NCBI GenBank assembly: GCA_046299555.1
Contig: JBKBHS010000003.1
Location: forward strand, 268,481-332,480
DNA: 64,000 nucleotides
Direction of reading: 5' to 3'
Source of the DNA: Bacteroidia bacterium
Lineage (GTDB): Bacteria > Bacteroidota > Bacteroidia > JACCXN01
The position numbers were made by a program, and so were the translations under genes. The stretch's first letter is position 1. Each line of letters starts with the position of its first letter. The notes beneath the pieces were generated by a model that saw only the letters and a list, made by a program, of their open reading frames with translations, was not told where the DNA came from and ran no database searches. Shown here in pieces: positions 4,890-38,897 of this stretch.

Positions 4890-5825
4890 GTGATGAAAAA
4901 ATATTTTGTTATAATAATTCTCACTTTTATTTCATTAAAAACAATTGCTCAAGGTATCGAAGAAGATATAATCATTTTAACCAATGGCAGTTTGTATAGA
5001 GGAAAAATTATTGACAGTACTCAAATAGATAGAATAAAAATTGAGTGTTACGACAGAAACATTTATGTATTTAACCGAACTGAAATATCTGAAATTAAAA
5101 AAGGTCCGGCAGATTTGAAATATAGTATTTCTAAAATAAGATTAATAAAAGAAAATAATAAAGTTATATCTGCCTACTTTAAAAAAGGATTTAAGTTTAG
5201 CGTTGAGACACTTTATGGATATAATTTTTCGAAAACAAATTCTAATAATTTTAATTACGCTGCATTTCTAATAAGTTCAGGGTATAGAATTAACAATGGC
5301 ATGTATATTGGCATACAAAGTGGTATTAATTATTTGGGCTTATTTAAAAAATCAAACTCATATCAAGTTGAAGGAATACCGAATTTATATTTTTACTTGT
5401 ATGATTTTAATAGAAATTTATTCCCTGCTCGCATAAGCATTCCCATTCTTTTCAACGTTCAGCAAACACTATTATTGGATAAAATGAGCAGTGTTTTTTC
5501 GCTAAGCTTTGGTTACGATTATAATATTACTTCGAATCAAACAAAGATATATACTGACACAAGGTATTTGGCTACAACCGAAACAAAACAAATTTTTAAA
5601 TGGAGTAATTCTTTAATATTAAATCCTGAAATAAAAAACATTATTGCTATTTCTGATAAAATTAACTTTTTAGCATCTATAGGTTTTTTGCAAAACAATA
5701 TCGATTTTGACATTGAACATACTATAACAATCAATTACTATACTACTTCTAATTCTTCAAGTAATAACATTAGAGATACTTTTCGATATAGATTTTTGTA
5801 TTTAAAATTAGGAATAGGATTTTAA
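4890..5825 (+). CDS. Predicted outer-membrane beta-barrel protein with a conserved N-terminal about 45-aa domain (paralog A, 311 aa)
   Basis: Signal peptide (MMKKYFVIIILTFISLKTIAQG). N-terminal motif IIILTNGSLYRGKI...EISEIKK. Alternating hydrophobic beta-strand pattern and C-terminal ...YLKLGIGF (terminal Phe). Confidence 0.6.
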   Translation: MMKKYFVIIILTFISLKTIAQGIEEDIIILTNGSLYRGKIIDSTQIDRIKIECYDRNIYVFNRTEISEIKKGPADLKYSISKIRLIKENNKVISAYFKKGFKFSVETLYGYNFSKTNSNNFNYAAFLISSGYRINNGMYIGIQSGINYLGLFKKSNSYQVEGIPNLYFYLYDFNRNLFPARISIPILFNVQQTLLLDKMSSVFSLSFGYDYNITSNQTKIYTDTRYLATTETKQIFKWSNSLILNPEIKNIIAISDKINFLASIGFLQNNIDFDIEHTITINYYTTSNSSSNNIRDTFRYRFLYLKLGIGF

Positions 5826-5828
5826 GTT

Positions 5829-6764
5829 ATGAAGAATACTTTTTTCATTGTTTTAACATTATTTTATATAGTTTCCTACGCTCAAAAAGAAGATGTTTTA
5901 TATTTAAAAAACAATTCGATTTTAAAAGGGAAAATTAAAAGTTATAATGAAAATAACACCTTAACTTTTATTACCTACAGTGGTAATAACCTTATAATTT
6001 CAAAAAACGAAATTGACAGTATAAAAAAAGAAAAAGCAAAACACCTTGATATTTTTTATTCTGAAAAAGAACAACAAAACAAAAAGTTGAAATTTATTTC
6101 ATCATTTAATTTTGTTTCCGGCTTTCATGAAAATTTTAGAAATACAAAAACCATAAGCAATCAATTTTTAATTGATGCCGGTATTCGCATTCAAGATAGA
6201 ATTAAATTAGGTGTAGGCATAGGAGTAATTCAATACATGAATTTACCTCCAAACGAGTATAAATTAATAAATGGAGCTAGCGATTATACCGTAATGCCAG
6301 ATAAAAATAATTTTACTAATTCATCGGTATTATATCACTTGCCTGTTTATTCTAATTTATCTTTTATGCTTTTAAAAGCAAAGAATAATAATGAATTATA
6401 TGTTTCAGCAAAAGCAGGATATATTTATTATGCACCTGAAAAATTTTACGGCACAATAAGAATTGATAGAAGAAACAATGCAGAAGTTTACAATTTGAGT
6501 TTCACATCTGAATATAACAAACGTTATTTTGTCCATCCGGAATTAATGCTCTATATTCCTACATTTAACAATACATCAAAATATAAAATTGGATTAGGTT
6601 ATTACTTAGATTTACTCACCATAAATTACAACTTTAGAGAACGTACATTTATCAATACTAATTATATGCTTCCATCACAAGGATATTGGCAAACAAGAGA
6701 ATACACTCAAAAGGATAAGGCATCTTTAGGTTTTATAACATTAAATTTAGGGTTAAGTTTCTAA
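5829..6764 (+). CDS. Tandem paralog B of the preceding gene (also 311 aa), predicted outer-membrane beta-barrel
   Basis: Same length, signal peptide, related N-terminal motif (VLYLKNNSILKGKI...EIDSIKK), and C-terminal ...TLNLGLSF. Starts 4 bp after paralog A ends. Confidence 0.6.
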   Translation: MKNTFFIVLTLFYIVSYAQKEDVLYLKNNSILKGKIKSYNENNTLTFITYSGNNLIISKNEIDSIKKEKAKHLDIFYSEKEQQNKKLKFISSFNFVSGFHENFRNTKTISNQFLIDAGIRIQDRIKLGVGIGVIQYMNLPPNEYKLINGASDYTVMPDKNNFTNSSVLYHLPVYSNLSFMLLKAKNNNELYVSAKAGYIYYAPEKFYGTIRIDRRNNAEVYNLSFTSEYNKRYFVHPELMLYIPTFNNTSKYKIGLGYYLDLLTINYNFRERTFINTNYMLPSQGYWQTREYTQKDKASLGFITLNLGLSF

Positions 6765-6766
6765 GG

Positions 6767-8317
6767 TTAAAAATCATAATACTTATTACCAATAGTGGTG
6801 CGAATACCGCCCATTACAAAATGTATGTTTTGGTTGTTGTAAATATTTTTCAATTGTCGGTTTGAATATGCTGCAAATAAGGAAAGGCGCATGCTTGGTA
6901 CAATCAAATAATCTACTCTAAAATCTAAACAATTTAAATAAGTGGCAATTCCCTGCCCCATGTAATTACCATATTCAGCAGGGCGATCGCGGTAAGAGCG
7001 ATAAATATCTCTTCCAAAATAAATAGTAGCTTCATCATCGCCATAAAAAGTTTGAACAGATTTTAATTCAAATCCTAATCGTTTGTAATAATAGCGAAGT
7101 ATCATTACACTTTCTTCAAAGTTAGCACCTTGTGGATGAGCCAATGGTTGATTAAAGTGACCGTAATTTTGCAAAACGCTGCTATGCGTATAGGTAAAAG
7201 GTCGTACAAAATTATATTCCAATTGAAAGGATAAATTTTTAATGGTAAATAAATCTAACCATTTCATTCCTGCTTGTAATGCATACTTATTAGCCCACCA
7301 GCCATTTCGTGCACGAATTTCTTTTAATAAAAATTCATCTATTACTGCTTGTCCATAAAGTATTACGGAGTTAAACAAACGATAGCGCACATTTACTCCC
7401 ATCAATGCATTATCGCCCGACCCAATGGAATACTCAACCGGACGATAGAAAATTAATGGATTTAAATAATTTACATCGTAATAAAAAGCTGCTGTAGTAT
7501 CGCGTGTTTCAAAAACGATTGATTCGAAAAAACCAAAGTTTAATCGCTTAGATAAGTTCCAGCTTAAATAATGTATAGCCGCATATTTCTTTTTAAAATC
7601 TGCTCTATTGCCATTGCTGAATCGCACATCGTTTAACTGCATAAACAAGTTAGTATATTGCAGTTTCCAAACTTTGGTATTTATTTTAAAGTAAGGATTA
7701 TTGTTAGCATTATCAGATAGCATTAATGAACGATAACCATCGCCAATAAAATGTTTTCCATTGCCTAATTCAAACAAAAAGTATTTTGATGGTTGATAAG
7801 CTAAATAAGCAGCTGTGTTTTGATAGGTATATCTGCCATCTTTTAAAAAAGCATAGCCTTGTCCGGGAACAATATTTTTTTGTTGAATAAACGTATCTAA
7901 AAACTGAGGGAACAAACTGTTTCCATAATTATACTGAATGCCTCCCGCCAAGACATTATTATATTGAATGCTTGCATTTACACCGGCACTAAGTTCTTGC
8001 CAGTTTTCATTCCCTATTTGTGCGTTTAAAATTGGCGAAGCTGTAATACTTAATTGGTGCTTTGAGTTTTCATTTTTACTTCTTGATTTGGGGTTAAAAT
8101 AAAAACGATACAAGCTATCATATCCGTTAATTTGGTTCAATTGATTTTGATAATAAGGTTTTACATGAGGATGAAAATCTGTATCGGCATTATATAAAAC
8201 CTTATCAAATCGATGATAGTAGGTATTTTCTAAAAGTAATTGTGTAGGCTGTGAATAAATTTTATCTGAAACAATTAATATATTAATAGTAAGTATGAAT
8301 TGTTTCAGATACTTCAT
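6767..8317 (-). CDS. Large outer-membrane beta-barrel protein (516 aa), paralog of 9427-11157; possibly capsule-assembly Wzi-like family
   Basis: Signal peptide and C-terminal ...NKYYDF. Shares the block GDGYRSLMLSDNANNNPYFK with the paralog (GEGYRSLLLSDNAFNYPYVK). Overlaps the start of the WecA-like gene by 4 bp. Confidence 0.55.
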   Translation of the reverse strand: MKYLKQFILTINILIVSDKIYSQPTQLLLENTYYHRFDKVLYNADTDFHPHVKPYYQNQLNQINGYDSLYRFYFNPKSRSKNENSKHQLSITASPILNAQIGNENWQELSAGVNASIQYNNVLAGGIQYNYGNSLFPQFLDTFIQQKNIVPGQGYAFLKDGRYTYQNTAAYLAYQPSKYFLFELGNGKHFIGDGYRSLMLSDNANNNPYFKINTKVWKLQYTNLFMQLNDVRFSNGNRADFKKKYAAIHYLSWNLSKRLNFGFFESIVFETRDTTAAFYYDVNYLNPLIFYRPVEYSIGSGDNALMGVNVRYRLFNSVILYGQAVIDEFLLKEIRARNGWWANKYALQAGMKWLDLFTIKNLSFQLEYNFVRPFTYTHSSVLQNYGHFNQPLAHPQGANFEESVMILRYYYKRLGFELKSVQTFYGDDEATIYFGRDIYRSYRDRPAEYGNYMGQGIATYLNCLDFRVDYLIVPSMRLSLFAAYSNRQLKNIYNNQNIHFVMGGIRTTIGNKYYDF

Positions 8318-9378
8318 ACTAAATCTTTTTTAATAAGTTTATTCCCAATTAGAATAGGAATTTCAAGGAATATAAATGCGCATGGGAAGACAATAAAAAA
8401 TGTTGTTGTACCATCAAATTTTTCTAATAAAATGGTTAAAAGAGGCATTAAAATAGAATATAGATAAATGATTAATACGGTTTGTTTATCATTAAACCCG
8501 GCACGCTGAAAGCGATGATGATAGTGGTTCCTATCTGCAGTAAATGGAGATTGCCCTTTTAAAGTTCTGTATATAAAAACCCTTAAAGTATCTGTAAGAG
8601 GATAAGATAAAATAGCAAGCGCCAGAATAGGTTTCGAAATCAATTTATAATCTGAATGTATTAAAGGCAATGGAAACTCAACTAATCGAATGGCTAAAAT
8701 TGACATAAATAAACCGATTGTTAAAGAACCTGAATCGCCCATAAAAATTTTAGCGGGAGAGAAATTAAAAATTAAAAATCCCAACAATGCACCACACAAG
8801 GATAAAGCCAGAGCAGCCATTACAAAACTACCTTGCATATAAAACCACCATGCAAAAATAAATGATGCAATGGCTCCAACTCCACTTGCAAGTCCATCTA
8901 CTCCATCAATTAAATTAAATGAATTTACAATTACAATATATGCAAAAACTGAAAGTCCTATACTTGCCCATTCGGGAATTTCGCGTATACCAAACAAGCC
9001 ATGTAGAGAAGTAATACGCACATCGGCCATCAACACTAAAATTCCGGCTGCAATAAAGTGTGCCAATAGTTTTTTTACCGGTGCAGTTCCAATTATATCA
9101 TCTTTTACACCTACAAAAAATAAAAGCAATCCGGTTGCCACTAAGTATTGTAGCAAAGAAGCATTCTCTCCTGAATACCAAAGTGAAAATGAGAATAATG
9201 TTGCTGCAAAAATAATAATTCCGCCTATGGTAGGAATTCTTCTTTCATGCAACTTTCGTTCTTTATCAGGCTCATCAAAAAGGCGCTTCATCAATGCCAC
9301 TTTAATCAAAGCAGGCGTTGATAGCAGCACCACTAAAAATGATGTAATAAAAACTAATAAAATAATTATCTTTTCCAA
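8314..9378 (-). CDS. Glycosyltransferase family 4 (MraY/WecA-like) polyprenol-phosphate HexNAc-1-phosphate transferase
   Basis: 10-11 TM helices. Motifs KDDIIG, NSFNLIDGVDGLASG and IFMGDSGSLTIG match the MraY/WecA signatures. Confidence 0.85.
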   Translation of the reverse strand: MEKIIILLVFITSFLVVLLSTPALIKVALMKRLFDEPDKERKLHERRIPTIGGIIIFAATLFSFSLWYSGENASLLQYLVATGLLLFFVGVKDDIIGTAPVKKLLAHFIAAGILVLMADVRITSLHGLFGIREIPEWASIGLSVFAYIVIVNSFNLIDGVDGLASGVGAIASFIFAWWFYMQGSFVMAALALSLCGALLGFLIFNFSPAKIFMGDSGSLTIGLFMSILAIRLVEFPLPLIHSDYKLISKPILALAILSYPLTDTLRVFIYRTLKGQSPFTADRNHYHHRFQRAGFNDKQTVLIIYLYSILMPLLTILLEKFDGTTTFFIVFPCAFIFLEIPILIGNKLIKKDLV

Positions 9379-9426
9379 TCCTCAATTTTTAGCAAATATA
9401 ATTAAAAGCTTTATTCATATAATTCA

Positions 9427-11157
9427 TTAAAAATCATAATAAAAATTAGCCAAATTGGTACTAATTGAAATTGTATAAATAAACGAATTATGAATCGGTG
9501 CAATTGGTGTAGCATTTTCTGTACGAATAAAAACTCCTCCTGCAATCTGCATATTTGTTTTACGATTGATAATATATCCGGCTCTTAACTCCTGTATGGT
9601 CAATGTAGATGTTATCGGTCTTAAAAAAAAGTCGTTTTGTGAAGCGCTGTAATTTGACTTAAATATATCATTACCAAAATTTCCTCCTCTGTTATCTTTA
9701 TCAATATGGGCAAAGGAATACCTGTACTGAATAAATAAATCTTTAAAGCTATAACCGGTTCTGAAAAGTATCTCATCAAAATTAGCTCCTAATGGATGTG
9801 TTAATGATTGATTGTAATGCGTATAACTTTGCAATGGTATGGCATGAGAATAGGTAAATGCTTTTACATTGTTGTATTCTGCTTGGAGAAAAAGGTTTTT
9901 AATTAATTCAAATGATTTTATACCTGCTTGATAAGCGAAGCGACTTCTTGCAAAATCATCAGAAACCAACTGTCCGTAAAGAGTAATTTTTTTATGAAGT
10001 TTAAATTTCAGATTGGTTCCAATAATAGCATTATGCTCATCATTTAATCCATACCTTAGTGTATTAGCAAATATTACAGGTAAAGCAAAACTTGGCTCAA
10101 AAGGTTTAACAGAATTGGTATCTTGCATTTGCCAGATAATTCCTTCGAAAAATCCAATATGTAATCGCTTATGAGGATTAAAACCAAGATAGTGAAATGA
10201 AGCCTTTTTGCGATAAAATAAATTTTCTGTAATGGTTGAAACACGCGTACGCTCTAAGCTTTGCAAAACCGCAAAAGTATTTACATATTGAAATATCCCA
10301 TATTGAATTGTACTTTTAACATAGGGATAATTAAAGGCATTATCAGAAAGTAATAGAGAACGATAACCTTCACCAACAAAATTTTTACCATGCCCTGCTC
10401 TGATATTCCATTTAAATTTTTCGGAATTATAGGGTGTATATGAAAAATAACCGGATGCCATTGCATAATCGAAGCCTCCTTTTTTAAAATCTTTCACTCT
10501 TCCTTGACCGGGAACCATACGATATGTTCTAACTTGTTGATGCAAGTATTCAGGAAAAAATGCTTGATTTTCATAAAATGAACTTTCGAATGAAAATTTT
10601 TCTCCAATATTTCCCTGCACCAACAAACCTCTTGTATTGATATAAAAATTAGTAGTATCAGCTCGCAAAGAGGTATCTGCCATATCATTCATTAGAGTAA
10701 AATTAAAGAGCGGATCAATACTTAAATAAAAATCGTCTTTTTTTACTTCAATCAAACTTTCTTGTTTGATTTTTCTACCAAGCAATGATTTTCTTACAAA
10801 ATGTTTTTGATAGGTATATTCTTCTGATTTTAAAGAATCGTATTGAGCAAAAGATGAAATTAACGGCTTAAAAGATGTTTGAACATTATTTTCAGGATGC
10901 TGAAAATACTTTTCGAATTTTTCATTAATTTGATTATTGAGCGGTAACTCTAATTGTTGCGCTTTTGTGCGTAATGGATTAAAGATAAAAGATAATAGAC
11001 AGAAGACTTTTGCGATATTTGAAATAAGTGAGAAGAGATTGATAAAGAAAGTTGTGTTTGATTTAAAATTAATAGTTAGTAAATTATTGGTAGAAAAGAG
11101 TTGATTATGTTTGAATAAATAAGGAATTAATAAGGATAATACTTTTTGAAATCGCAT
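9427..11157 (-). CDS. Large outer-membrane beta-barrel protein (576 aa), paralog of 6767-8317
   Basis: C-terminal ...LANFYYDF, shared GEGYRSLLLSDNAFNYPY block and alternating beta-strand pattern. The annotated Met start precedes a weak signal-like segment, so the start is uncertain. Confidence 0.55.
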   Translation of the reverse strand: MRFQKVLSLLIPYLFKHNQLFSTNNLLTINFKSNTTFFINLFSLISNIAKVFCLLSFIFNPLRTKAQQLELPLNNQINEKFEKYFQHPENNVQTSFKPLISSFAQYDSLKSEEYTYQKHFVRKSLLGRKIKQESLIEVKKDDFYLSIDPLFNFTLMNDMADTSLRADTTNFYINTRGLLVQGNIGEKFSFESSFYENQAFFPEYLHQQVRTYRMVPGQGRVKDFKKGGFDYAMASGYFSYTPYNSEKFKWNIRAGHGKNFVGEGYRSLLLSDNAFNYPYVKSTIQYGIFQYVNTFAVLQSLERTRVSTITENLFYRKKASFHYLGFNPHKRLHIGFFEGIIWQMQDTNSVKPFEPSFALPVIFANTLRYGLNDEHNAIIGTNLKFKLHKKITLYGQLVSDDFARSRFAYQAGIKSFELIKNLFLQAEYNNVKAFTYSHAIPLQSYTHYNQSLTHPLGANFDEILFRTGYSFKDLFIQYRYSFAHIDKDNRGGNFGNDIFKSNYSASQNDFFLRPITSTLTIQELRAGYIINRKTNMQIAGGVFIRTENATPIAPIHNSFIYTISISTNLANFYYDF

Positions 11158-11178
11158 ATTAGCTAATTTACATCCTAT

Positions 11179-12117
11179 TTACACAAGCTGATTTAAATAA
11201 TCTATAACATCATAATATACCATTCTAATTCCTTGTTCTAATTCTATTTTATGCTTCCATCCAAATGAATGTAACTTTGAAACATCCATTAATTTTCGTG
11301 GTGTTCCATCCGGTTTAGTAGTATCAAATTTTAATTCGCCTTTATAGCCAACAATTTCCTTAATCAATAAAGCAAGTTCTTTAATACTTATGTCTTTGCC
11401 AGTTCCAATATTTATCAAGCCTGATTCGTTGTAGTGCATCATTAAATAAAAACATGCATCAGCCAAATCATCTACATGCAAAAATTCGCGCATTGGACTT
11501 CCTGTTCCCCAAATTTCAACAAATGGAGTTCCCTTAATTCTTGCTTCATGAAATTTGCGCAACAAAGCCGGCAAGACATGTGAATTATTTAAATCGTAAT
11601 TATCGTTTGGTCCATACAAATTAGTAGGCATTACAGAAATATAATTACAACCGTATTGTGAACGGTAAGCATCGCACATTTTGATACCGGCAATTTTGGC
11701 TATGGCATAAGGTTCATTGGTTGGCTCTAAAGTACCGGTTAATAAGTATTCTTCTTTTAACGGTTGTGGAGCCATTTTTGGATAGATACAAGAAGATCCT
11801 AAAAACAATAATTTTTTAACTCCATTTTTATAGGAGGAATGAATAACATTACTCTGTATCATTAAATTATCGTACAAAAATTCTGCACGATAGGTATTAT
11901 TTGCATGTATGCCTCCAACTTTGGCAGCTGCTAAAAAAACATATTCGGGTTTTTCCTGCTGAAAAAAATCGGCAACAGCTTGTTGATTTCTTAGGTCTAA
12001 CTCTTTTGATGTTCTAACAACGATATTAGAGTACTCTTCTTTTTCAAGTTTTCTGACAATAGCAGATCCAACCATTCCACGATGACCTGCCACATATATT
12101 TTTGCTGATTTTTCCAA
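11179..12117 (-). CDS. fcl: GDP-L-fucose synthase (GDP-4-keto-6-deoxymannose 3,5-epimerase/4-reductase)
   Basis: 312 aa. N-terminal [18 protein letters not shown] Rossmann motif, and the overall SDR-extended pattern of Fcl/WcaG. Confidence 0.9.
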
Positions 12118-12132
12118 TCTTTCAAATAAATT

Positions 12133-13221
12133 TTATTCGTGCTGACTAATTACATCGTGCCCGCCTTCTATTAAATATTTTTCTCTCTTATATAAGGCGA
12201 TATCGGATTGTACCATTTCTTCACACAACTGTTTTACAGTATATTTAGGTTTCCAACCCAATTCAGTTCTTGCTTTGATTGAATCGCCTATTAATAAATC
12301 AACTTCGGTTGGTCGGAAATATTTTGGATCTATTTCTATTAAAACCTTCCCCGTTTTTTTATCAATTCCTTTTTCATCTATCCCTTCTCCAATCCAATTA
12401 ATAGAAATACCAACCATTTCAAAAGCCATTTCGGCAAATGTTCTAACTGATATTTTTTCACCGGTAGCCAATACATAATCGTCCGGCTTTTGTTGTTGCA
12501 ACATTAACCACATTCCTTCCACATAATCTTTTGCATGTCCCCAATCGCGCTCCGCATCTAAATTTCCTAAATATAATTTTTCTTGTAACCCTAAACTAAT
12601 AGCTGCTGCTGCACGCGTAATCTTTCTTGTAACAAATGTTTCTCCTCTAATCGGACTTTCATGGTTAAACAGAATTCCATTAGTAGCAAAAATTCCATAA
12701 GCCTCGCGATAATTTTTGGTTATCCAATAAGCATATACTTTTGCAACTCCATATGGGCTACGAGGATAAAAAGGAGTAGTTTCTTTTTGAGGAATTTCCT
12801 GCACTAATCCATACATTTCTGAAGTTCCTGCCTGATAGAATCTGGTCTTTTTTTCTAAACCTAAAATTCGAATGGCTTCTAAAATTCTCAATGCACCTAA
12901 AGCATCTGCATTTGCTGTATATTCAGGTGTTTCGAACGAAACTTTTACATGCGACTGTGCAGCTAAATTGTAAATTTCATCCGGTTGCGTTTCTTGAATA
13001 ATGCGAATTAAATTGGTACTATCCGTTAAATCGCCATAATGTAAAAAAAAGTTTACTCCTTTTTCATGTCGATCTTTATACAAATGGTCTATTCTATCAG
13101 TGTTAAATAATGAGCTACGTCTTTTTATTCCATGCACTATATATCCTTTATTTAACAAAAATTCTGCTAAATAAGCCCCATCTTGACCGGTAATTCCTGT
13201 AATTAATGCAACTTTTTTCAT
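12133..13221 (-). CDS. gmd: GDP-mannose 4,6-dehydratase
   Basis: [37 protein letters not shown]... is the canonical Gmd N-terminus. The start was moved to the internal Met (MKKVAL) rather than the extended ORF start at 13260. Confidence 0.9.
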
Positions 13222-13225
13222 TTTA

Positions 13226-14107
13226 TTAATAACTTGATTTTGCTGCACCAATATTTTCAATTGGATGCCATGTGGTTTTTATTTCTTGTAAATCTAAAAT
13301 CATGTATGGATTTTCAACTTCTTCACTGTTCCACTTTTTAGAATATATAAATGCTCGTTTTACATTTAATGAAGCATTTTGCTGAATCTTTTTTATTTCT
13401 TCTTTATTATCTCTGCAATATACAATTGCGTTAACATCCATGTGCGAAGAAAAATGACCATGTAATTCTTTTGAAGTACCTGTTAAAATATTAACTACAC
13501 CGCCTGGCACATCAGAAGAATTAATTACCTCTGCAAATGAAACAGAGCACAAAGGCTTTGATTCTGAAGCTAACACCACACAGGTATTTCCACCGGCTAT
13601 ACAAGGAGCAATTACTGAAACAATACCCAGTAAACTCGTTTCTTCAGGAGCAATAATTGCAACTACTCCTGTAGGTTCAGGAACAGAAAAATTAAAGTGT
13701 GATGAGGAAACAGGATTAACTGTACTAAATAGCTGAATATATTTATCACACCATCCGGCATAATATACCAAACGATCAATACTTTGATCTACTTCTTCTT
13801 CGGCAGCTTTAGGTGTAGCTCCTTGTTGTTGCAATTCAGCTATAAATTGAGCTTTCCTTCCTTCGAGCATTTCTGCAATACGGTATAAAATTTGACTGCG
13901 ATTAAATGCTGCACGAGCGCTCCAGCCCCCGAATGCTCCTCTTGCAGCTACTACTGCATTTCTAAAATCTTTACGTGAAGAAAGGCAAATGTTTGCCAAT
14001 AATTTTCCGTTTTTATCATGTAAAGGATAATATCTTCCACTTTCAGTCCGAGGAAATTGCCCCCCTATGTAAATCTTATATGTTTTTAAAACTTCCAATC
14101 TGTTCAT
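13226..14107 (-). CDS. Aldehyde dehydrogenase-like protein, truncated and degenerate (N-terminal and NAD-binding part only, 293 aa); possible gene remnant
   Basis: Aligns by eye to the N-terminal about 60% of the adjacent full ALDH (YYAGWCDKY vs YYAGWADKL; GGNTCVV vs AGNTVVL; GGVVNILTG vs DGVVNIVTG). The ELGG motif is degenerate (IYSKKW). The catalytic Cys region is absent because the ORF runs into gmd. Confidence 0.45.
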
Positions 14108-16986: not shown

Positions 16987-17032
16987 AACAAAAAACTGTT
17001 TGTGAATATACAATTTTAGATAATATGCCAAT

Positions 17033-17063
17033 AAAAAAAGCCTCAAATTATTTGAGGCTTTTT
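17033..17063. terminator. Bidirectional rho-independent terminator hairpin (AAAAAAAGCCTCAAAttaTTTGAGGCTTTTT); terminates the TonB-C gene on the minus strand
   Basis: 9-bp GC-containing stem flanked by an A-run and a T-run. Confidence 0.6.
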
Positions 17064-17084: not shown

Positions 17085-17753
17085 TTATTTTAAAGTAAAT
17101 CGAATTGGTAAATTGTATTGAACGCTAACTGCTTTTCCTCTCTGTTTACCGGGTTTCCATGGTGGCATGTTTTGTACCACGCGAATAGCTTCTTCATCGC
17201 AACCACCTTTGATACCACGTAATACTTTAACATCTTTTACTTTACCATCAGGGCCGATTACAAATGTTACGAACACCGTTCCTTGTATCCCTGCTTCTTT
17301 AGCCATTTGAGGATATTTAATATTATTAGCAAGGTACTTAAATAATGCTTCTTCGCCACCGGGGAAAGTTGGCATTTCTTCAACAATGGTAAATATTTCA
17401 GGCTCTTCAATTACTTCTTCTTGTTGTTGTACTACTTGCACCTCAGTATTCTGATCGGCTTCAGAATCTTTTATTTCAACTTCATTTTCAATTTCTTTAT
17501 CATCTTCTACAATTTGTAATTCGATTGTTTGTGGAGGAGGTGGTGGTGGAGGTGTTACTTGCTGTTGCGTAATTGGGATAATTTCTTCTTCAATTTGCTC
17601 AATTTGTAATTGCCCTAAATCTTTTACTTCTCCTTCGTAAGTTTTCCATTCAAATGCAAGAAGTATTATCAACAAAGAAATAACTAACCCTATTTCGAAA
17701 AATAAGCCTTTTTGTTTTTCTAAATCAGCTTGTGGATTTTTCTTTAATTCCAT
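17085..17753 (-). CDS. Energy transducer TonB (proline-rich linker plus TonB C-terminal domain)
   Basis: N-terminal TM, PPPPPPPQ linker, and C-terminal domain with YPQMAKEAGIQGTVFVTFVIGPDGKV...V.V.YNLPIRF characteristic of TonB_C. Confidence 0.75.
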   Translation of the reverse strand: MELKKNPQADLEKQKGLFFEIGLVISLLIILLAFEWKTYEGEVKDLGQLQIEQIEEEIIPITQQQVTPPPPPPPQTIELQIVEDDKEIENEVEIKDSEADQNTEVQVVQQQEEVIEEPEIFTIVEEMPTFPGGEEALFKYLANNIKYPQMAKEAGIQGTVFVTFVIGPDGKVKDVKVLRGIKGGCDEEAIRVVQNMPPWKPGKQRGKAVSVQYNLPIRFTLK

Positions 17754-17832
17754 TTTTTACTTTTCTTAATTGGCAAATATAATTATTTTCTACAATGTGC
17801 AACAAGTTAAATACTTTAACGGACTGAAATTA

Positions 17833-18222
17833 TTAATATTGTTTTAAAGGTTGATTGTAAATTACAAAAAATGAACTTACTCCTATAAATGCTCCGATAA
17901 AATTTGCTATAATATCAATTAAGTCTGCTGTCCTGCCGGCATACATATAATATTGTAATGTTTCGATAATTATTCCATAAAGCATACTTATAATAAACCC
18001 TATAGCAATTGCATTATGTTTTAAAGCAGAGTTAGAATATTGTTTTTTAAACGCAATAATTAATTGCAAAGCAAGTAAGGCATAAAAAAACATATGAGCC
18101 AGCTTATCGAAGCTCAAAAAATCCCAAATATTTGTATCAGGCATTTCATGCGATGGAGTAAGCGATAAAAAAAGGATAATAATCGCCCAGATTACAGGCG
18201 GCAAAAAATGCCTGATTTTCAT
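17833..18222 (-). CDS. VanZ-like family membrane protein
   Basis: 129 aa with 4 TM helices and the acidic DKLAH / ETLQYY motifs typical of VanZ-like proteins. Low-certainty family call. Confidence 0.5.
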   Translation of the reverse strand: MKIRHFLPPVIWAIIILFLSLTPSHEMPDTNIWDFLSFDKLAHMFFYALLALQLIIAFKKQYSNSALKHNAIAIGFIISMLYGIIIETLQYYMYAGRTADLIDIIANFIGAFIGVSSFFVIYNQPLKQY

Positions 18223-18229
18223 AATTTTA

Positions 18230-18610
18230 TTACAAGCCTATTACTTTTTTGTAATCTTCTGCTGACAACAAATTATGAACCGATGAAGGATCGGCAACTT
18301 TTACTTTTACCATCCAGCCATCACCATAAGGGTCGGTATTTACTAAGTCGGGCGAAGATTCTAATTTAGAATTTACTTCTATCACCTCTCCCGTAACAGG
18401 CATAAATAAGTCAGAAACTGTTTTAACGGCTTCAACCGTACCAAATACTGCTTCTTTTTCAACTGTTTCTCCAAGTGTATTAATGTCAACATATACGATA
18501 TCTCCCAGCTCTTTTTGAGCAAAATCAGTAATTCCGATGGTAGCAATATCGCCTTCTAAACGAAGCCACTCGTGGTCTTTAGTGTACTTTAAATTGTCAG
18601 GAATATTCAT
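18230..18610 (-). CDS. gcvH: Glycine cleavage system H protein
   Basis: [42 protein letters not shown]...[22 protein letters not shown] carries the lipoyl-lysine motif (VKT). The start was moved to the internal Met, and the N-terminal 18-aa extension of the ORF was rejected. Confidence 0.9.
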
Positions 18611-18672
18611 TGGTATAAAATTTATTTTGGGGGGTAAAATTACATTAAATTTAATGTGAATCAATATAAATT

Positions 18673-21600
18673 TTACGACAATGTAAATCTTAAACTAATA
18701 CCTCCGCTGGTATTAGAAGAAGGGAAGGAATTAGAGATTTTTGGACGCATTAAATTTTTATCGAAAAATATTCGAACATTTAATCGTTGATTAATTACAT
18801 AATCAGCAGCTGTTTTAAGGGCAATCATTTTTTGTCCTGCCGTTGGCTGTACTAAATTGTCGGCAACACCACGGGTTATGGTTACGTTATCTCTAATCGA
18901 AATATCTGCTCTTAAATTCAAATCGCTTTTAATGGTTTTTGCTGTTGGTCCAACTTTAAAGGGCAATACTACATCTTTAAAGCGATAACCTGTACCTATT
19001 ACCCATTCGAACCCGCGAGTTTCGTTTAAACGATTATCTGTAAAATTATAAACAAGGTTGCGGTCTTTTTTATATTCTACTTTGGTAATTAAACTATTAT
19101 TCCATGTCATATCTATATTGGCTAAAGGGCTAAATTGCTCGGTTAATGAAAGCTGTGCAAATTGATATTGTGAAATAAAATTGCCGTTTATATCCAATGC
19201 ATTTGGATTTCCATTAATATCTTCTCTGTAAAATAAATTGGTTGTGTAAGATGAAATATTTAGGGATGAACGATAAGCGTGACTTAAAGTAACGGTTTTA
19301 AAATATTTTTTAAAGAATTCGATTTTGGAAAGGCCATCGTAAGTTATTCGCCAGTTAGGTAAAGGAATAGCCGGCATAGCAGAATATAAACCTGATGAGA
19401 GTGGCCTGCCGGAATAAGCGGCTAAAAATGCCGGAACTAGTACTTCTTGCGAAGTTGGTCCATATCCATTGTAATAGATACTGGTATCAATACTTGAATT
19501 TGGATTAGCCTGTCCTAAAATTTCTGAAACTTTTTGTCTGTTATCTAAAAATTGGTTGAAAATTTTAGATGTATTTCCGGTGTCTCTAACAAATGCAGAC
19601 CTGATTATAATAAACGAAATGCTATAGTTACCCATAGTCATGGGTGTTTCAGATACAAAGTCTTGTATGCTGTCGTTCCAACGGAAAAATTCCGAATTAT
19701 TGGTTGACTTGTTTTTACTGGCATTCAACTCAATTTTTAAGCTCTTGGCTGGTTCAATATTTGCTCTGGCATTAAGTGTTTGGCTATATGTTCGGGCAAA
19801 AGGCACATTCAGATTTTGATTTTGAACCAACCAACCATTTTGAGCTGCTGTTCGAGCAATATTTTCATCTTGAACTCCAAAAACAAAACCTGTGGTTGGT
19901 GCTCTAAAGCCATCGGTAAATCCTAAAAATTTAGTTGAATCGCCAAAGCCCGGCAAAATAGTACCTTCATTTTCGGTATAGTTAATTGATGCATTTTTTA
20001 CCATCATTAATACGCGAAACACTTGCTCGAATAGAGTAATTTTATTAGGATCTTTTTCTTTTTCTTCTTTTTTAGGCTTCTTTTTGTTTAAAGTATCTGC
20101 CGGATTTTTAGGAGGCGTTGGCTGTGTAGGCTTTTTAGGAGCCACTTTTTTACCGGATGCTTTTTGATTAATATCTTTTAAAAATGGTACTTTGTTGTAT
20201 AAAGTTACCAAATTAGCTTGAGCATTTACTTGTTTGGAATTAGAATTCTTAATAGTATTACCTAAAGAGTCGTTGGCAAAAGGAGCCCTTGTCCAGTCGT
20301 AAGTTGCAGAGTAGCGTGTATTAACGGTAACCCAATCTAAAATTGGAATTTTATTGATCGGCACATTATAATTTACATTAACAGCATGATTATAATTGGT
20401 GTTTACTCCACCTGTTTTAATATTATTTATCAACGAATCTTTTTTCTCTTGGGTATCAATTCTTCCATCGGGTTCAAATATTCGGGAATTGTTGGTTGCT
20501 GTAAAATCAACTTTCAATGATTTGGTAATATCATATCGCACCTCATACAAACGTGTTATTACAAAATTTTTATTAAATGTTGGATCAACAATAAAGAAAT
20601 CGCCACTATTGTTTCTAAATAAAATCTCATTAAAGTTTTTATCAACCGAGGTAGTAAATGCTAATCGGTTTGGTCCAAGCCCAATATTAAAATCAGAAAT
20701 TAGTTTGAGATATTTTCGTTTTTCTAATCCTTTTACTTTTTTAAATGGTTCAAAGGATTTTGGTTGTGGATTAAAATTATAATTTAAAATACCCCTGTAG
20801 GCGCGTAAAGTATTGTGTTGTGTATTTATGTCACGCTTAAATGTTTCATTATATGAATAAGAAATTGCCCAATTTTCGATATCGTAAATTCTGGATTTAC
20901 CGGCATTTTTACCTTTTTCTTTTTTTACATTGGTAAAGTTAATGCTTCTGCGTTTAGTATAATCTTGCACGAGTTTTTTAAGGGAGTCGCGTTTACCGGC
21001 ATCACCGGCAAAAGAAGCTAATTGATCTTTTAATTCGATATCCGGATCATTAGGATTAAATTGAGGATCGATAAAAGTTTCGGAAACGGAATAAAACATT
21101 GGTAAACGAATATTGGCATTGGGAGGAAGTAATTTTCCTAACTCAAAATTGGATGATAAATCATACTGGTAGTTATGTGAACGTTGGCGTTCGCTAATTT
21201 TTTTCTCAATGGTTCCCCATCCTGGTGTACTCATATTTCCAGACAGGGTAACTGTTCCAAAATCGGCTAATTTGGTTGTTGCTCTCGCTGTAGAAGCCCA
21301 ACCGCTGCGCTTATCAAAATCGGTTAATCGCAATTCGTTTACCCAAACTTCAGCACACTTTGGTAAGCCATCATCAGAATCTAATGCGTTTTGTTTTTTA
21401 GGGTTTCTAACACCAATCATTACAGTAACCACGTTTTGTATATTAGGATTACCCATAATGGTAATTTTAGCTCTACCATCTGATGTTGGAACAGTAAATG
21501 GACGTGTTAGAGATGCTGTTCCGTTTTCAATAGCGGCATTTCGTAATAGCTTAGCTCTTTTTAATTCTTCAAAAACGATATCAACATTATTTGCTTCGGG

Positions 21601-24600
21601 CCATACTTTTTCTCTGTCTATTTCCGAATCGTTATTATATTTTCCCGGAGCTGTAAGTTTTAAAGGCAATTCGTATTCGTAGTAATTATCTACAAAATCT
21701 CGACCTAAACGAACAAACACATTTATATCATCATCTTTTAAAGGATTTTCTCCAACTTGTTCGGCATGCACATACATTTTTAAATTTTTGTAGGATAACA
21801 TGTCCAGATTAATATTTTTATAAGCAGCACGGGCATCACCATCTTCTAAACCGCATACATTTAATTTCATGGCTTGTTCGTTAAGTCTGCGCAGGTTAGC
21901 AGTTCCAATATCAATCTGACGGTCAATTTTAGGTGGTATTACATAATTTACAGGAACTTTTTCGCCATTTTCTTCAAAGTTTACGGCAGCTACGTCAAAT
22001 AAGGTAAAACGGTCGTCTGTTAATTGATATTCGCCTGTTGCCAATAAATCGTAAGGATATTTACGCCAATCGCTTCGAACAAATTCTAATCTGGCAAATC
22101 GAAGCACAACAGAATCTTTAAAACCTTTTAAAAACATTCGAATAAAGCGAATGGTAGTAAAATCTTCTATTCCTCCTATTATTTCATCCGGTTGAGAAAT
22201 GGGTATTCTAACTTGATACCAATCTACATCAATGGTATTTCCGTTTTTAAGTGTTCCTGTTCCTCTTGTTTTATCGACAATAAAATTTTGCCCTACTACC
22301 ATATCTTGCGGACGAATACTCATTTTATATTGATAGTAATTTTCATCAATTCCTAAGGTATTATCACGATTTATATCTTCAACGTTTGGCAATGTGGTTG
22401 CGGCTGTTGGATAAGGTTCAGGAGAATTTTCTGTAGTTGGTGAATTTCCTTCTAATCCATTAAATTTTTTGTAACGTTGAAGAATGCTTAGTTGTTGTTG
22501 GTCAAAATCGCTTCCTCTAAAGTAATGGAAATTATCGTTTGAAGGATCTTTTAATGCCTCTTGGTATGCTATGCTGTTTACTCCGTAAAGTTGACGAATT
22601 CTATCTAAATAGGTAGAGTCGAAAAACTGAATTTCTTTTAATGAATCTAATCCATCTAATCCAATATCTTGATTAGGACGTGCAGCCGGATTATTATCAA
22701 AAGCATTTACTAATGTGAGTAAAGTTGAAACCCTTCCCCAAGCTGTATATTCGGTATTATCATCGCTTCCATCGGGTGAAATTCCATTTTCAAAAGCCAT
22801 ACGATTATCGCGTAATATATCTTCTGAAATATTTCCTAAATTAAAATATAAGTCGCCTCCGGAATGTTTATAATTACCCGGTTCATCAATACCATTATCG
22901 GGATGAAATGGATCCATTAACCAAAACTGTATATACTCAATGTTAGATGTTTGAAAATCGGGTTGATCGATACGCCTCATAATTCCTGCCCATCTTGATT
23001 CAGGATTTTTAAGTCGCCCGGCTGAATCAATACCGGCCGAAATAAAATTTGGTTCAACATCGTAGTTATATGGTCCTTTTTCGGTAGGATAATACGCTAA
23101 ATCTAAAACCGGCATATTTAAGACTTGTCCGGTTTGTGGAACACGATTAGGGAAAATTTCGGTTTCTAAAACTTCGCGTGTATAGTGATTGGATTGTTGG
23201 GGTGAATTTTTAATATGATCAGGTGTTAAATTGTTGTTTCTAAAAAATAGCGGGTCGATGGTGTACCATGCAAGTTTGGCTCTGTTGTAACCATAGCGTA
23301 AATCGTTCACTAAATTTCCTTCGGGGAATAAGCCAGGTTGTTTTTGAGGTACACTTGCCAAGGTCCATGCATTTTGCATACGTATATCAATGGTAGTTTG
23401 GCTGCCTTCAAAATCATCAATATAGGCTGTACCAGTTCTACCAATAGCTCTTGAATTTCCGGGAAGTAATTGTGCAAATTCTCCATTTACTGTTAAAGTT
23501 GATTTTTCTTTTGTTTGAATAAAAGGTAATTTATCAACCAATTTTGTTAAATAAGGCACTTCTGTTTTCCAATTTCCATCTAAGCCCCATACGCTGTTCG
23601 ACATGGGTTCGTCACCCATATTTACTTTTTGTGTAAGTGGACGCTCGGTTAAATTCATAAAAGTTGCTCCAAAGCTTAAATCTTTATTTACCCGATAATC
23701 TAAATGAGTACCAAATAATGATTTTTGCTGAATAGCAAACATCGCATTACTTTCGAGCGAAACTTTTATAGGAGTGTTAGATTGTAAATAAGCCGGATTT
23801 ATAATTTTTACACGTCCTAAAGTATAATCAACTGTATAATCTGTGTTTTCGACAAGAGGAGCACCACCCGCAGTAACTACAACTGACCCTGGAGGAATAT
23901 TCATGGCATTAAGTGAAATTTCGGAATTATTGCTGGATTGATAGGTCCCTTTAATTTTAAAACGATTTAAGTCTGCTCGCTGTTGTGCTGCTATTTTTGT
24001 AGTATCATATAGAGGATCGAATACGTATTTATTGGCAATTATTTCTTTATTAATGTCTCCTCCCGTTATCTTTTTTCTAAGATGATCACCGAATGGTTCA
24101 ACCACCGGAAAATATATTCTACCATTTTGTGGATTAATGGTTTTTCCTTCTAAGAAATCGAAAAATCCGTCAGGCCTTGCATCTGTTTGCATATTTAGCC
24201 TGTCTACATTTAAAACCTGCAATAAGGGAATACCTTTAATATCGCCTTCGGGAATAAAGTTGATATCAATTCCTTGATCTAAACTATTATATGTAACTTG
24301 TAATCTGAAATTTTCTTTTCCGATATTAAATGCACCAAGCGAATACACATTTTTCATCATTAAATTCCACAATGGTATTCGAGTATTTACATTACTTGAT
24401 TTCAGTAATTTTAGGATTAGCGCTTTATCGCCCGTTACCCCATCGGTTGAAAACTCTCCTACTTGATATACTTCTGACGAACCGGCAATGGTATATTGAA
24501 AAGCAACTGCTAAAACTTGATCGGCATTTAAGGTTTGATTTAGTGATATAAATCCTAATTGCGGATTAAAGGTATATTCTGATGGTTGTAACATTCTTGC

Positions 24601-37277: not shown

Positions 37278-37282
37278 TAAAT

Positions 37283-38206: not shown

Positions 38207-38260
38207 TTAGTAAACATCTTTTAACTTTCTGCGTTTGACCTTAAAACGTATATTTGTTTA

Positions 38261-38887: not shown

Positions 38888-38897
38888 TGTTTAAACA

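What the first reader, a model, noticed from the sequence alone, without database searches (positions are those of the whole stretch)
4890..13260. Surface glycan locus built around duplicated outer-membrane barrels: two tandem 311-aa paralogs, a WecA-like transferase flanked by two large paralogous barrels, then fcl and gmd
The locus has GDP-fucose synthesis genes (gmd, fcl) and an initiating polyprenol-phosphate HexNAc-1-P transferase. It has no recognisable Wzx/Wzy/Wza/Wzc or ABC exporter within the window. Instead there are four predicted outer-membrane beta-barrels in two diverged paralog pairs: 4890-5825 with 5829-6764, and 6767-8317 with 9427-11157. The large pair brackets the transferase gene with 4-bp overlaps on one side, which suggests translational coupling. 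If the large barrels are Wzi-like, having two copies around the initiating enzyme is atypical. Alternatively they may be a lineage-specific outer-membrane export or anchoring component for a fucosylated glycan.
Basis: partly seen in the sequence, partly recalled or inferred. Interest (0 to 1): 0.5.

Follow-up and report, generated by a model that had tools for sequence, protein, structure and literature searches.

The report
Paired RemB/Wzi-like barrels around WecA
A conserved Bacteroidota gene cassette makes GDP-fucose, starts a lipid-linked sugar chain, and encodes two outer-membrane barrels of the RemB/Wzi family that most likely hold the finished sugar polymer on the cell surface; this gives the poorly understood gliding protein RemB a testable role.

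Summary
All seven ORFs are at the stated coordinates, and both paralog pairs are real: the large pair gives BLASTP E 6e-62 and the small pair E 4e-8. gmd and fcl pass equivalog cut-offs. The transferase is WecA-like. It overlaps the 516-aa barrel gene by 4 bp (ATGA). No Wzx, Wzy, Wza, Wzc or glycan ABC exporter is in the window.

The cassette gmd-fcl-barrel-transferase-barrel recurs in about 23 of 84 loci compared. An initiating transferase abuts a RemB-like barrel in 38 of 66 loci with full flanks. In some relatives the same slot holds complete Wzx/Wzy loci. Conservation peaks in the predicted surface loops.

The two 311-aa genes are probably small barrels. They are a clade-specific insert on the opposite strand and not part of the cassette.

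Best reading: the barrels anchor a WecA-initiated, probably fucosylated glycan, as Wzi does (confidence about 0.55).

The parts
12133..13260 (-). gmd, GDP-mannose 4,6-dehydratase. The ORF is listed from a TTG at 13260. The probable start is the ATG at 13221, giving 362 aa.
   Evidence: TIGR01472 scores 619 bits (cut-off 415) and PF16363 gives 8e-159. The start was inferred from 362-364-aa orthologs and from the sequence.
11179..12117 (-). fcl, GDP-L-fucose synthase
   Evidence: NF047922 scores 523.5 bits (cut-off 500). NCBI names this exact protein 'GDP-L-fucose synthase family protein'.
9427..11157 (-). Upstream RemB/Wzi-like outer-membrane barrel (576-aa ORF). It belongs to the paralog clade that lacks the L6 insert and the L5 motif.
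   Evidence: PF14052 scores 39.6 bits (gathering score 30.1). It is 31% identical to the 516-aa barrel (E 6e-62) and 31% identical to Hyunsoonleella RemB (E 3e-82). It sits in a monophyletic clade of 23 sequences. NCBI names it 'capsule assembly Wzi family protein'.
8314..9378 (-). WecA-like polyprenyl-phosphate HexNAc-1-phosphate transferase (polytopic PNPT, Pfam Glycos_transf_4)
   Evidence: PF00953 gives 4e-40. ECA_wecA scores 155.6 bits against 85.4 for mraY, both below their equivalog cut-offs. Motifs present: DD93, N152SFNLIDGVDGL, GDSGS214 and HYHH285. Its stop overlaps the next gene's start as ATGA. JGI names a protein in the same 90%-identity cluster a UDP-GlcNAc:undecaprenyl-phosphate GlcNAc-1-P transferase.
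6767..8317 (-). Downstream RemB-type barrel (516 aa), the positional ortholog of remB
5829..6764 (+). Second 311-aa protein: signal peptide, small N-terminal beta domain and a probable small outer-membrane barrel. It is a neighbour and probably not part of the cassette.
4890..5825 (+). First 311-aa protein, a diverged tandem paralog of the second. It is a neighbour and probably not part of the cassette.
   Evidence: BLASTP E 4e-8 against 5829-6764. GC content here is 0.25 against about 0.32 in the surroundings.
17085..25944 (-). Upstream conserved module sprA (18673-25944), gcvH-like (18230-18664), vanZ (17833-18222) and tonB (17085-17753). In Flavobacteriaceae this module is followed directly by remB.
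   Evidence: Pfam hits: SprA_N 9.5e-201, GCV_H, VanZ and TonB_C. The same order sits upstream of RemB in L074 and L082. The operon is described in PMC12419801.

Best explanation
The conserved unit is a five-gene, same-strand cassette on the minus strand: gmd, fcl, an upstream RemB/Wzi-like barrel, a WecA-like transferase and a downstream RemB-type barrel.

**Proposed mechanism**
1. Gmd and Fcl make GDP-L-fucose (shown at equivalog level).
2. The WecA-like enzyme puts a HexNAc-1-phosphate on undecaprenyl phosphate at the inner membrane, which primes a lipid-linked glycan. The family and its motifs are shown. The sugar specificity is inferred.
3. The remaining glycosyltransferases, the flippase and the polymerase or ligase are encoded elsewhere in this genome. 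This is inferred, because relatives carry full Wzx/Wzy loci in the same slot.
4. The two barrels sit in the outer membrane as closed, Wzi-type 18-stranded barrels. Their conserved surface loops bind the finished glycan and keep it attached to the cell, as Wzi does for the K30 capsule. This is inferred from the fold, the loop conservation and the gene context.

The two paralogs share the L3 and L7 loop motifs but differ in L5 and L6, so they probably recognise different features or partners.

The downstream barrel is the ortholog of RemB. In Flavobacterium johnsoniae, remB came out of the same genetic screen as the lectin adhesin RemA and the polysaccharide genes remC, wza and wzc (recalled from Shrivastava et al. 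2012; I could not read the paper here). That fits a role in presenting polysaccharide on the surface.

The two 311-aa genes are a separate, clade-specific pair of small outer-membrane proteins.
For: **Fold and family**
- The model has three N-terminal helices followed by 18 strands. Its long loops fall at L3, L5, L6 and L7, which is where Wzi has its functional loops (PMC3791409).
- PF14052 is passed by the 576-aa paralog.
- Homologs of 37% and 31% identity are named RemB by NCBI.

**Link to glycan synthesis**
- A GT4 (WecA-like) transferase is the immediate neighbour of a RemB-like barrel in 34 of 66 loci with full flanks. A WbaP-type Bac_transf is the neighbour in 4 more.
- This occurs in at least four different arrangements: barrel-GT4-barrel, GT4-barrel, barrel-GT4-SLT/LysM, and Bac_transf-barrel.
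- Where GT4 lies upstream, its gene mostly overlaps or abuts the barrel gene. In the window the junction is ATGA.
- In L065 and L049 the slot between tonB/deoC and the barrel holds Wzx, Wzy_C, GT1, GT2, sulfotransferases and an acetyltransferase. L049 adds gmd-like genes and a GT4.
- The full cassette is kept at only 35-47% barrel identity.

**Functional site**
- In the RemB clade, conservation is highest in the predicted surface loops: L3 0.83, L5 0.69, L6 0.65, L7 0.73. Strands score 0.35-0.65.
- In Wzi, deleting L3, L6 or L7 abolishes polymer binding.

**Old duplication**
- The upstream copies form one clade of 23 sequences, and 22 of them are followed by GT4.
Against: - No Wza, Wzc, Wzx, Wzy or fucosyltransferase is in the window. 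The glycan itself and its fucose content are therefore unproven.
- Part of the gmd/fcl adjacency could be frozen synteny. The same block also carries deoC, two aldehyde-dehydrogenase genes and the cox genes.
- 28 of 66 loci have no initiating transferase next to the barrel.
- The 516-aa protein fails PF14052, and neither the A1 profile nor the 576-aa protein finds any PDB chain by sequence, Wzi included.
- The loops that carry the motifs are modelled with low confidence (pLDDT below 50 for residues 271-302 and 375-393). Occlusion of the barrel is therefore assumed, not seen.
- Loops that are nearly invariant across a phylum do not fit well with a lectin for a variable polysaccharide.
- The RemB phenotype is recalled from memory. 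The paper was not available.
- The 80 loci are the best-scoring relatives of one query and share ancestry, so the counts are not independent events.
Confidence: 0.55

Rival explanations
1. The barrels are outer-membrane export channels for the glycan, like AlgE, PgaA or the Myxococcus EpsX-type 18-stranded porins. They would replace the missing Wza-type translocon.
Confidence: 0.12
2. The barrels belong to the sprA-gcvH-vanZ-tonB envelope module, which acts in type 9 secretion, gliding or outer-membrane lipid modification. Their adjacency to sugar genes would then be inherited gene order without a shared function.
For: In Flavobacteriaceae, RemB directly follows sprA-gcvH-vanZ-tonB and carries an N-terminal TonB-C-like domain. 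This operon is described in PMC12419801. The window keeps the module 9 kb upstream. The block between them also holds unrelated metabolic genes. 28 of 66 loci have no adjacent initiating transferase.
Against: An initiating transferase from either of two unrelated enzyme families abuts the barrel in several independent arrangements. Full Wzx/Wzy loci occupy the slot in L065 and L049. The upstream paralog clade is almost always (22 of 23) followed by GT4. The two readings do not exclude each other. A surface glycan could be what links RemB to gliding.
Confidence: 0.15
3. The barrels are outer-membrane enzymes, in the way PagP, PagL and OMPLA are. They would process or transfer the glycan or its lipid carrier at the surface, using the invariant His, Asp, Glu, Ser and Arg residues in the loops.
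For: Polar residues in L3, L5 and L7 are invariant across the sampled Bacteroidota. Examples are GDGYRS..LSD, NP.IF.RP.E.S.GS.DN and Y.H.NQPLAHP.GAN. That degree of loop conservation is more typical of an active site than of a lectin for variable polymers.
Against: No similarity to any known outer-membrane enzyme was found. The closest fold, Wzi, is a non-catalytic lectin. The upstream paralog has lost the L5 and L6 motifs yet is itself conserved.
Confidence: 0.08

Closest known systems
Wzi of Escherichia coli K30 / Klebsiella group 1 capsules (PDB 2YNK, Pfam PF14052)
   Different: - Sequence identity in the structural alignment is only 12%, and the 516-aa protein fails PF14052.
- wzi sits with wza-wzb-wzc, whereas here the partner is the initiating transferase and no export genes are nearby.
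- There are two old paralogs instead of one gene.
- The loop motifs are nearly invariant across the sampled Bacteroidota. By contrast, wzi alleles vary with capsule type in Klebsiella (my own knowledge, not tested here).
- Flavobacteriaceae members carry an extra N-terminal TonB-C-like domain.
RemB of Flavobacterium johnsoniae (Fjoh_1657), annotated 'gliding motility protein RemB'
   Same: The 516-aa protein is 37% identical (E 2e-100) over the whole barrel to proteins NCBI names RemB. It holds the same genomic position, downstream of sprA-gcvH-vanZ-tonB and upstream of cyoE. remB is Fjoh_1657 and sprA is Fjoh_1653 (PMC4910214).
   Different: - The window's proteins lack the N-terminal TonB-C-like domain of the 690-700-aa Flavobacteriaceae form.
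- A 9-kb block that includes a second paralog and the transferase lies between tonB and the gene.
- RemB's biochemical function is unpublished as far as I could find. No paper in the library links RemB to Wzi.
WecA / WbpL-type polyprenyl-phosphate N-acetylhexosamine-1-phosphate transferases (PNPT superfamily, PF00953)
   Same: PF00953 gives 4e-40, and the best NCBIfam model is ECA_wecA. The DD, NxxNxxDGxDGL and HxHH motifs are present.
   Different: It scores below the WecA equivalog cut-off (155.6 against 326), so the sugar specificity is unknown. It is translationally coupled to an outer-membrane barrel gene, which is not a feature of enterobacterial wecA.
FCB-group operon VanZ-2 / SprA / GcvH-like / TonB / TonB-C~Wzi-like barrel (Burroughs et al. 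2025, PMC12419801)
   Same: The window contains sprA, gcvH-like, vanZ and tonB in that order. The RemB-type barrel lies further downstream.
   Different: In the window the barrel is separated from tonB by deoC, two aldehyde-dehydrogenase genes, gmd, fcl, the second barrel and the transferase. It also has no fused TonB-C domain. In the passages I read, that paper mentions neither RemB nor a link to initiating transferases.

Membership tests
Wzi (Caps_assemb_Wzi, PF14052) | Passes the Pfam gathering score | tested here: inconclusive
   The 576-aa protein scores 39.6 bits against a gathering score of 30.1, so it is met. The 516-aa protein has no hit, so it is not met. Only 2 of the 25 aligned sequences (the window protein and 24 database homologs) hit at E<=0.01.
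Wzi (Caps_assemb_Wzi, PF14052) | 18-stranded beta-barrel | tested here: met
Wzi (Caps_assemb_Wzi, PF14052) | N-terminal bundle of 3-4 helices before the first strand (periplasmic plug) | tested here: met
   Helices at 31-41, 57-61 and 66-74 precede strand 1 at residue 89. The criterion is the one used by Bushell et al.. Confidence in this part of the model is moderate (pLDDT 47-75).
Wzi (Caps_assemb_Wzi, PF14052) | Long surface loops L3, L5, L6 and L7 that fold into the barrel and bind the polymer | tested here: inconclusive
   Long loops occur at exactly these positions, and they carry the family's most conserved motifs. L5 and L7 are modelled at pLDDT below 50. Binding cannot be tested with these tools.
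Wzi (Caps_assemb_Wzi, PF14052) | Encoded with wza-wzb-wzc in a group 1 capsule locus | tested here: not met
   No Wza, Wzb or Wzc is in the 64-kb window or next to the barrels in related loci. The rest of the genome was not available.
RemB (gliding motility protein, F. johnsoniae Fjoh_1657) | Full-length similarity of the barrel to proteins named RemB | tested here: met
   Against Hyunsoonleella RemB WP_186557911, the 516-aa protein is 37% identical (E 2e-100) and the 576-aa protein 31% (E 3e-82). There is no RemB model in NCBIfam or Pfam to test against.
RemB (gliding motility protein, F. johnsoniae Fjoh_1657) | Position downstream of sprA-gcvH-vanZ-tonB and next to cyoE/cox | tested here: met
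   Met for the 516-aa gene, allowing for a 9-kb insert. The locus-tag spacing of remB and sprA is in PMC4910214.
RemB (gliding motility protein, F. johnsoniae Fjoh_1657) | N-terminal TonB-C-like domain (the 690-700-aa Flavobacteriaceae form) | tested here: not met
   The window proteins align from the helical region onward and lack the first 170 or so residues. Chitinophaga homologs of about 525 aa that UniProt labels RemB lack it too.
RemB (gliding motility protein, F. johnsoniae Fjoh_1657) | Mutant phenotype: phage resistance and reduced motility in a sprB-deletion background | not testable with these tools
   Recalled from Shrivastava et al. 2012. The paper is not held.
WecA-type PNPT (PF00953) | Glycos_transf_4 domain with the DD, NxxNxxDGxDGL and HxHH motifs | tested here: met
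   PF00953 scores 137.9 bits. DD93, N152SFNLIDGVDGL and H285YHH are present.
WecA-type PNPT (PF00953) | Equivalog-level match to WecA (TIGR02380) rather than MraY | tested here: not met
   WecA scores 155.6 bits against a cut-off of 326, and MraY 85.4 against 192. The protein is therefore WecA-like, with its substrate unassigned. In the PDB only MraY chains match by sequence.
GDP-fucose pathway (Gmd, Fcl) | Equivalog cut-offs of TIGR01472 and NF047922 | tested here: met
   619.2 bits against 415, and 523.5 against 500.
Small outer-membrane beta-barrels (OmpA / OmpW / NspA-like), for the 311-aa pair | Membrane barrel fold with a terminal aromatic residue | tested here: inconclusive

The most novel reading that the evidence does not exclude
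The RemB-type barrels may be more than passive capsule anchors. They could be a phylum-wide outer-membrane module, working as a pair of specialised paralogs, that recognises one conserved, WecA-primed and possibly fucosylated surface glycan. That module would couple the glycan to the SprA, type 9 secretion and gliding apparatus, possibly with TonB-like energisation. This would explain three things: the loops are nearly invariant, the gene sits in the sprA-gcvH-vanZ-tonB operon, and Flavobacteriaceae versions carry a fused TonB-C domain. The module could be either a receptor or an enzyme.
Probability: 0.15. Interest if true: 0.7.

Novelty: new variant of a known kind. Interest (0 to 1): 0.45.

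Why it matters
RemB has been listed as a gliding-motility gene for over a decade without a mechanism, and the 516-aa protein in this genome is still annotated 'hypothetical'.

This analysis shows three things:
- The family has a Wzi-type fold.
- Its conserved residues lie in the predicted surface loops.
- Across Bacteroidota its gene is physically coupled, often by overlapping codons, to the enzyme that starts lipid-linked glycan synthesis.

Together these turn 'unknown outer-membrane protein' into a specific, testable idea: RemB-type barrels retain a surface glycan that adhesins such as RemA, and also phages, use. The analysis also identifies an old paralog pair with different loops, which makes a natural experiment on specificity.

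The practical reach is moderate. The family is very common in environmental and host-associated Bacteroidota (more than 4,900 hits). The components are all of known kinds, however, and nothing here overturns current models.

Tried and rejected
**Searches that gave nothing**
- Sequence searches of the PDB with the RemB-clade profile and with the 576-aa protein found nothing. Only fold comparison found Wzi.
- NCBIfam has no model that hits either barrel, or proteins named RemB. Membership could therefore only be tested by pairwise similarity and gene position.
- The sigma-70 promoter and terminator scan gave fewer or no more sites than shuffled sequence, so it was uninformative. Bacteroidota promoters are not covered by that scan.
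- Literature searches for RemB with Wzi, and for Fjoh_1657, found nothing relevant.

**Resources not available**
- Shrivastava et al. 2012 and McBride & Zhu 2013 are not held. The RemB phenotype is therefore cited from memory.

**Ideas rejected**
- FadL or a general porin as the identity of the large barrels. Wzi beats maltoporin and the Occ porins by 7 Z units, and no FadL-type hit appears among the 60 matches listed.
- The 311-aa pair as part of the glycan system. The genes are on the opposite strand. They are absent from all 83 loci first compared. They occur only in close relatives, in the same slot. A profile search shows that only the N-terminal 70-140 residues are widespread.
- MraY as the identity of the transferase. 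It scores 85 bits against a cut-off of 192.

**Not used**
- The third protein-homolog search. None of the candidate queries would have changed the conclusions.


Full report

Yes. ORF listing gives the seven genes at the stated coordinates.

- The two large proteins are clear paralogs: 31% identity over about 500 residues, E 6e-62.
- The two 311-aa proteins are weaker but significant paralogs: 28% identity over the N-terminal 150 residues, E 4e-8, and 26% over the full length.
- gmd and fcl pass NCBIfam equivalog cut-offs (619 against 415, and 523.5 against 500).
- The 354-aa protein has a Glycos_transf_4 domain (4e-40). Its best NCBIfam model is WecA (155.6 bits), well above MraY (85.4), though both are below their cut-offs.
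- It carries the DD, NxxNxxDGxDGL and HxHH motifs typical of WecA-type enzymes. Its stop codon overlaps the start of the 516-aa gene as ATGA. On the other side there is a 48-nt gap.
- I scanned every ORF of at least 120 aa in the window against Pfam. None is a Wzx, Wzy, Wza, Wzc or glycan ABC transporter.
- The exact proteins are in GenBank from a Bacteroidia MAG. There the 576-aa protein is called 'capsule assembly Wzi family protein' and the 516-aa protein 'hypothetical'.

**2. What are the large barrels?**

*Fold.*
- The 576-aa protein passes Pfam PF14052 (39.6 bits against a gathering score of 30.1). The 516-aa protein hits nothing in Pfam or NCBIfam.
- An AlphaFold2 model of the 516-aa protein, built on 25 sequences (the window protein and 24 homologs), has pLDDT 72 and pTM 0.75. 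It shows a signal peptide, three short helices and then 18 strands.
- The Wzi paper describes an 18-stranded barrel, an N-terminal helical plug and long loops L3, L5 and L7 that fold in. Deleting L3, L6 or L7 abolishes polymer binding (PMC3791409). The model's long loops fall at the same positions.

*Family.*
- The family is large and spread across the phylum. There are more than 4,900 hits, nearly all unnamed. A genome scan found them in Flavobacteriales, Chitinophagales, Bacteroidales and Marinilabiliales.
- Exact look-ups show that NCBI names the Flavobacteriaceae members 'gliding motility protein RemB' (Hyunsoonleella, Lutibacter). UniProt gives the same label to a 523-aa Chitinophaga member.
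- The 516-aa protein is 37% identical to Hyunsoonleella RemB (E 2e-100). The 576-aa protein is 31% identical (E 3e-82).
- The Flavobacteriaceae proteins are 690-700 aa because they carry an extra N-terminal domain that looks like TonB-C.

**3. Gene position**

- In Flavobacteriaceae loci L074 and L082 the order is sprA, gcvH-like, vanZ, tonB, (tonB), RemB, cyoE, cox.
- This matches the published locus tags sprA = Fjoh_1653 and remB = Fjoh_1657 (PMC4910214).
- It also matches the FCB-group operon of VanZ-2, SprA, GcvH-like, TonB and a TonB-C~Wzi-like barrel described by Burroughs et al. (PMC12419801).
- The window has sprA (18673-25944), gcvH (18230-18664), vanZ (17833-18222) and tonB (17085-17753). 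Next come deoC, two aldehyde-dehydrogenase genes, gmd, fcl, the 576-aa barrel, the transferase and the 516-aa barrel. The 311-aa pair and cyoE follow.
- The 516-aa gene is therefore the positional ortholog of remB. The 576-aa gene and the transferase lie inside a block placed between tonB and remB.

**4. Is the link to the transferase more than inherited order?**

I compared 83 related loci with the window.

- The full order gmd-fcl-barrel-GT4-barrel is present in about 23 loci. Barrel identity to the window's proteins in these loci is only 34-47%, and they are labelled Bacteroidia, Flavobacteriales, Cryomorphaceae or Sediminibacterium.
- Other arrangements also pair a barrel with an initiating enzyme. 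These are GT4-barrel, barrel-GT4 followed by an SLT/LysM transglycosylase, and a WbaP-type Bac_transf directly upstream of the barrel.
- Among 66 loci with full flanks, 34 have GT4 as the immediate neighbour of a barrel and 4 have Bac_transf.
- Where GT4 is upstream, the two genes mostly overlap or abut. My longest-ORF gene calls exaggerate these overlaps.
- In L065 the slot between tonB/deoC-like and the barrel holds Wzx, two sulfotransferases, an acetyltransferase, a Wzy_C protein, an epimerase, a GT2 and a GT1. L049 adds a Gmd, a reductase and a GT4 just before the barrel.
- Caveat: the loci are the best-scoring relatives of one query and share ancestry, so the counts overstate the number of independent events. 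Even so, two unrelated classes of initiating enzyme appear next to the barrel in at least four arrangements. That is hard to explain by frozen synteny alone.

**5. The duplication**

- A neighbour-joining tree of 108 barrels puts all upstream copies in one clade of 23 sequences. The 516-aa protein and the named RemB proteins fall in the other large clade.
- 22 of the 23 upstream copies are followed by GT4. The pair is therefore old and stably kept.
- I mapped conservation onto the predicted topology. In the RemB clade it peaks in the predicted surface loops: L3 0.83, L5 0.69, L6 0.65, L7 0.73. Strands score 0.35-0.65, and L1, L4 and L9 score 0.2-0.3.
- The main motifs are GDGYRSxxLSD in L3, NPxIFxRPxE(F/Y)SxGSxDN in L5, GWWAN in L6 and RPYTYSH...YxHxNQPLAHPxGAN in L7.
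- The upstream clade keeps L3 (0.84) and part of L7 (0.59). It has lost the L6 insert and the L5 motif.
- Surface loops are usually the most variable part of an outer-membrane protein. Their conservation here suggests they fold into the barrel and form the functional site, as in Wzi. It also suggests the two paralogs do different jobs.

**6. The 311-aa pair**

- Both proteins have signal peptides and end in Phe.
- The pair is on the opposite strand, convergent with the 516-aa gene. Its GC content is 0.25 against about 0.32 nearby.
- It is absent from the 83 loci. Only six similar proteins were found in the 5.8-billion-protein database. In two relatives it occupies the same slot.
- A full HMMER profile search found about ten full-length relatives. 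Roughly 2,000 proteins share only the N-terminal 70-140 residues.
- I treat the pair as a clade-specific insertion, not as part of the cassette.

**7. Most likely mechanism**

- Shown: the GDP-fucose genes, a WecA-family initiating transferase, two Wzi-fold barrels of the RemB family, and conserved physical coupling of the barrel and transferase genes.
- Inferred: the transferase primes an undecaprenyl-linked glycan. Enzymes encoded elsewhere complete and flip it. The barrels bind it at the surface through their conserved loops and keep it cell-associated.
- From memory: in the F. johnsoniae screen, remB came out together with remA (a lectin adhesin), remC (a glycosyltransferase), wza and wzc. 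If that is correct, RemB supplies the Wzi-like third member of a Wza/Wzc/Wzi-type set. I could not read that paper.
- I give this reading about 0.55.
- The rivals are an export channel (0.12), membership of the SprA/TonB envelope module with only historical adjacency to sugar genes (0.15) and an outer-membrane enzyme (0.08). The second rival and the main reading could both be true.

**8. Comparison with the known, and novelty**

- The parts are all of known kinds. Public annotation already labels one barrel as Wzi family.
- I could not find the following described anywhere:
  - that RemB has the Wzi fold;
  - the recurrent coupling of RemB-type barrels to initiating phosphoglycosyl transferases;
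  - the old paralog pair bracketing a WecA-like gene;
  - loop motifs that are conserved across the phylum.
- The cassette differs from the classical Wzi system in four ways: the gene partner is the initiating enzyme rather than wza-wzb-wzc, there are two copies, the loops are conserved, and it is tied to the sprA-tonB operon.
- I rate it a new variant of a known kind, with moderate interest (0.45).

Noticed in passing
window 17085-25944 (-): sprA (2423 aa, SprA_N 9.5e-201), a gcvH-like gene, vanZ and a 222-aa TonB form the FCB-group operon described in PMC12419801. In Flavobacteriaceae this operon ends in RemB. Here about 9 kb of metabolic and glycan genes separate it from the RemB ortholog.
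   Followed up: partly
window 13226-14107 (-) and 14594-16063 (-), with 16075-17046 (-): A 293-aa protein matches only the N-terminal half of aldehyde dehydrogenases (profile positions 15-231 of 461). It is conserved at that length next to a full-length 489-aa aldehyde dehydrogenase and a DeoC-like aldolase in many loci. This half-size ALDH-like protein looks like a real gene, not a pseudogene.
   Followed up: no
window 14183-14554 (-): Two short ORFs (43 and 66 aa) in the 486-nt gap between the two aldehyde-dehydrogenase genes together resemble a split GxxExxY-type small protein. That identification is from memory. The gap is only 158 nt in relative L001, so this is probably a decayed insertion.
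   Followed up: no
window 288-440 (-): A SAM riboswitch (RF00162, 65.5 bits, E 5.5e-13) points towards the window's left edge. In relatives, a B12-dependent methionine synthase gene lies beyond the cox/DUF420 genes.
   Followed up: no
window 30904-31605 (-), 33108-35012 (+), 43582-44415 (+), 46327-47661 (+), 53506-57858 (-): Five proteins have type 9 secretion C-terminal sorting domains (Por_Secre_tail). They include a beta-lactamase-fold protein and a 1450-aa protein with a purple-acid-phosphatase N-terminal-type/fn3 segment. The organism has an active type 9 cargo repertoire close to sprA.
   Followed up: no
window 35634-39464 (+) and 45403-46323 (+): There is a run of further predicted outer-membrane proteins: DUF6029 (547 aa, 3e-197), Omp28, OMP_b-brl_2 and, further on, a DUF5777 membrane barrel next to a YceI-like protein. 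None is related to the RemB family.
   Followed up: no
L018, L031, L036, L039, L053, L064, L083 (barrel-GT4 arrangement): In the alternative arrangement, where the barrel is followed by GT4, the next or second-next gene is, in most of these loci, an SLT-domain lytic transglycosylase with LysM repeats. In L018, L034, L039 and L042 an OmpA-family protein and a 10-bladed beta-propeller precede the barrel. This hints at a cell-wall connection that I did not explore.
   Followed up: no
window 4890-6764 (+); profile search: The N-terminal 50-70 residues or so of the 311-aa proteins form a small beta domain, with a weak hit to NCBIfam Lepto_7_Nterm (E 4e-4). About 2,000 otherwise different proteins of 230-330 aa share it. 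It looks like an unnamed, widespread module on small envelope proteins.
   Followed up: partly
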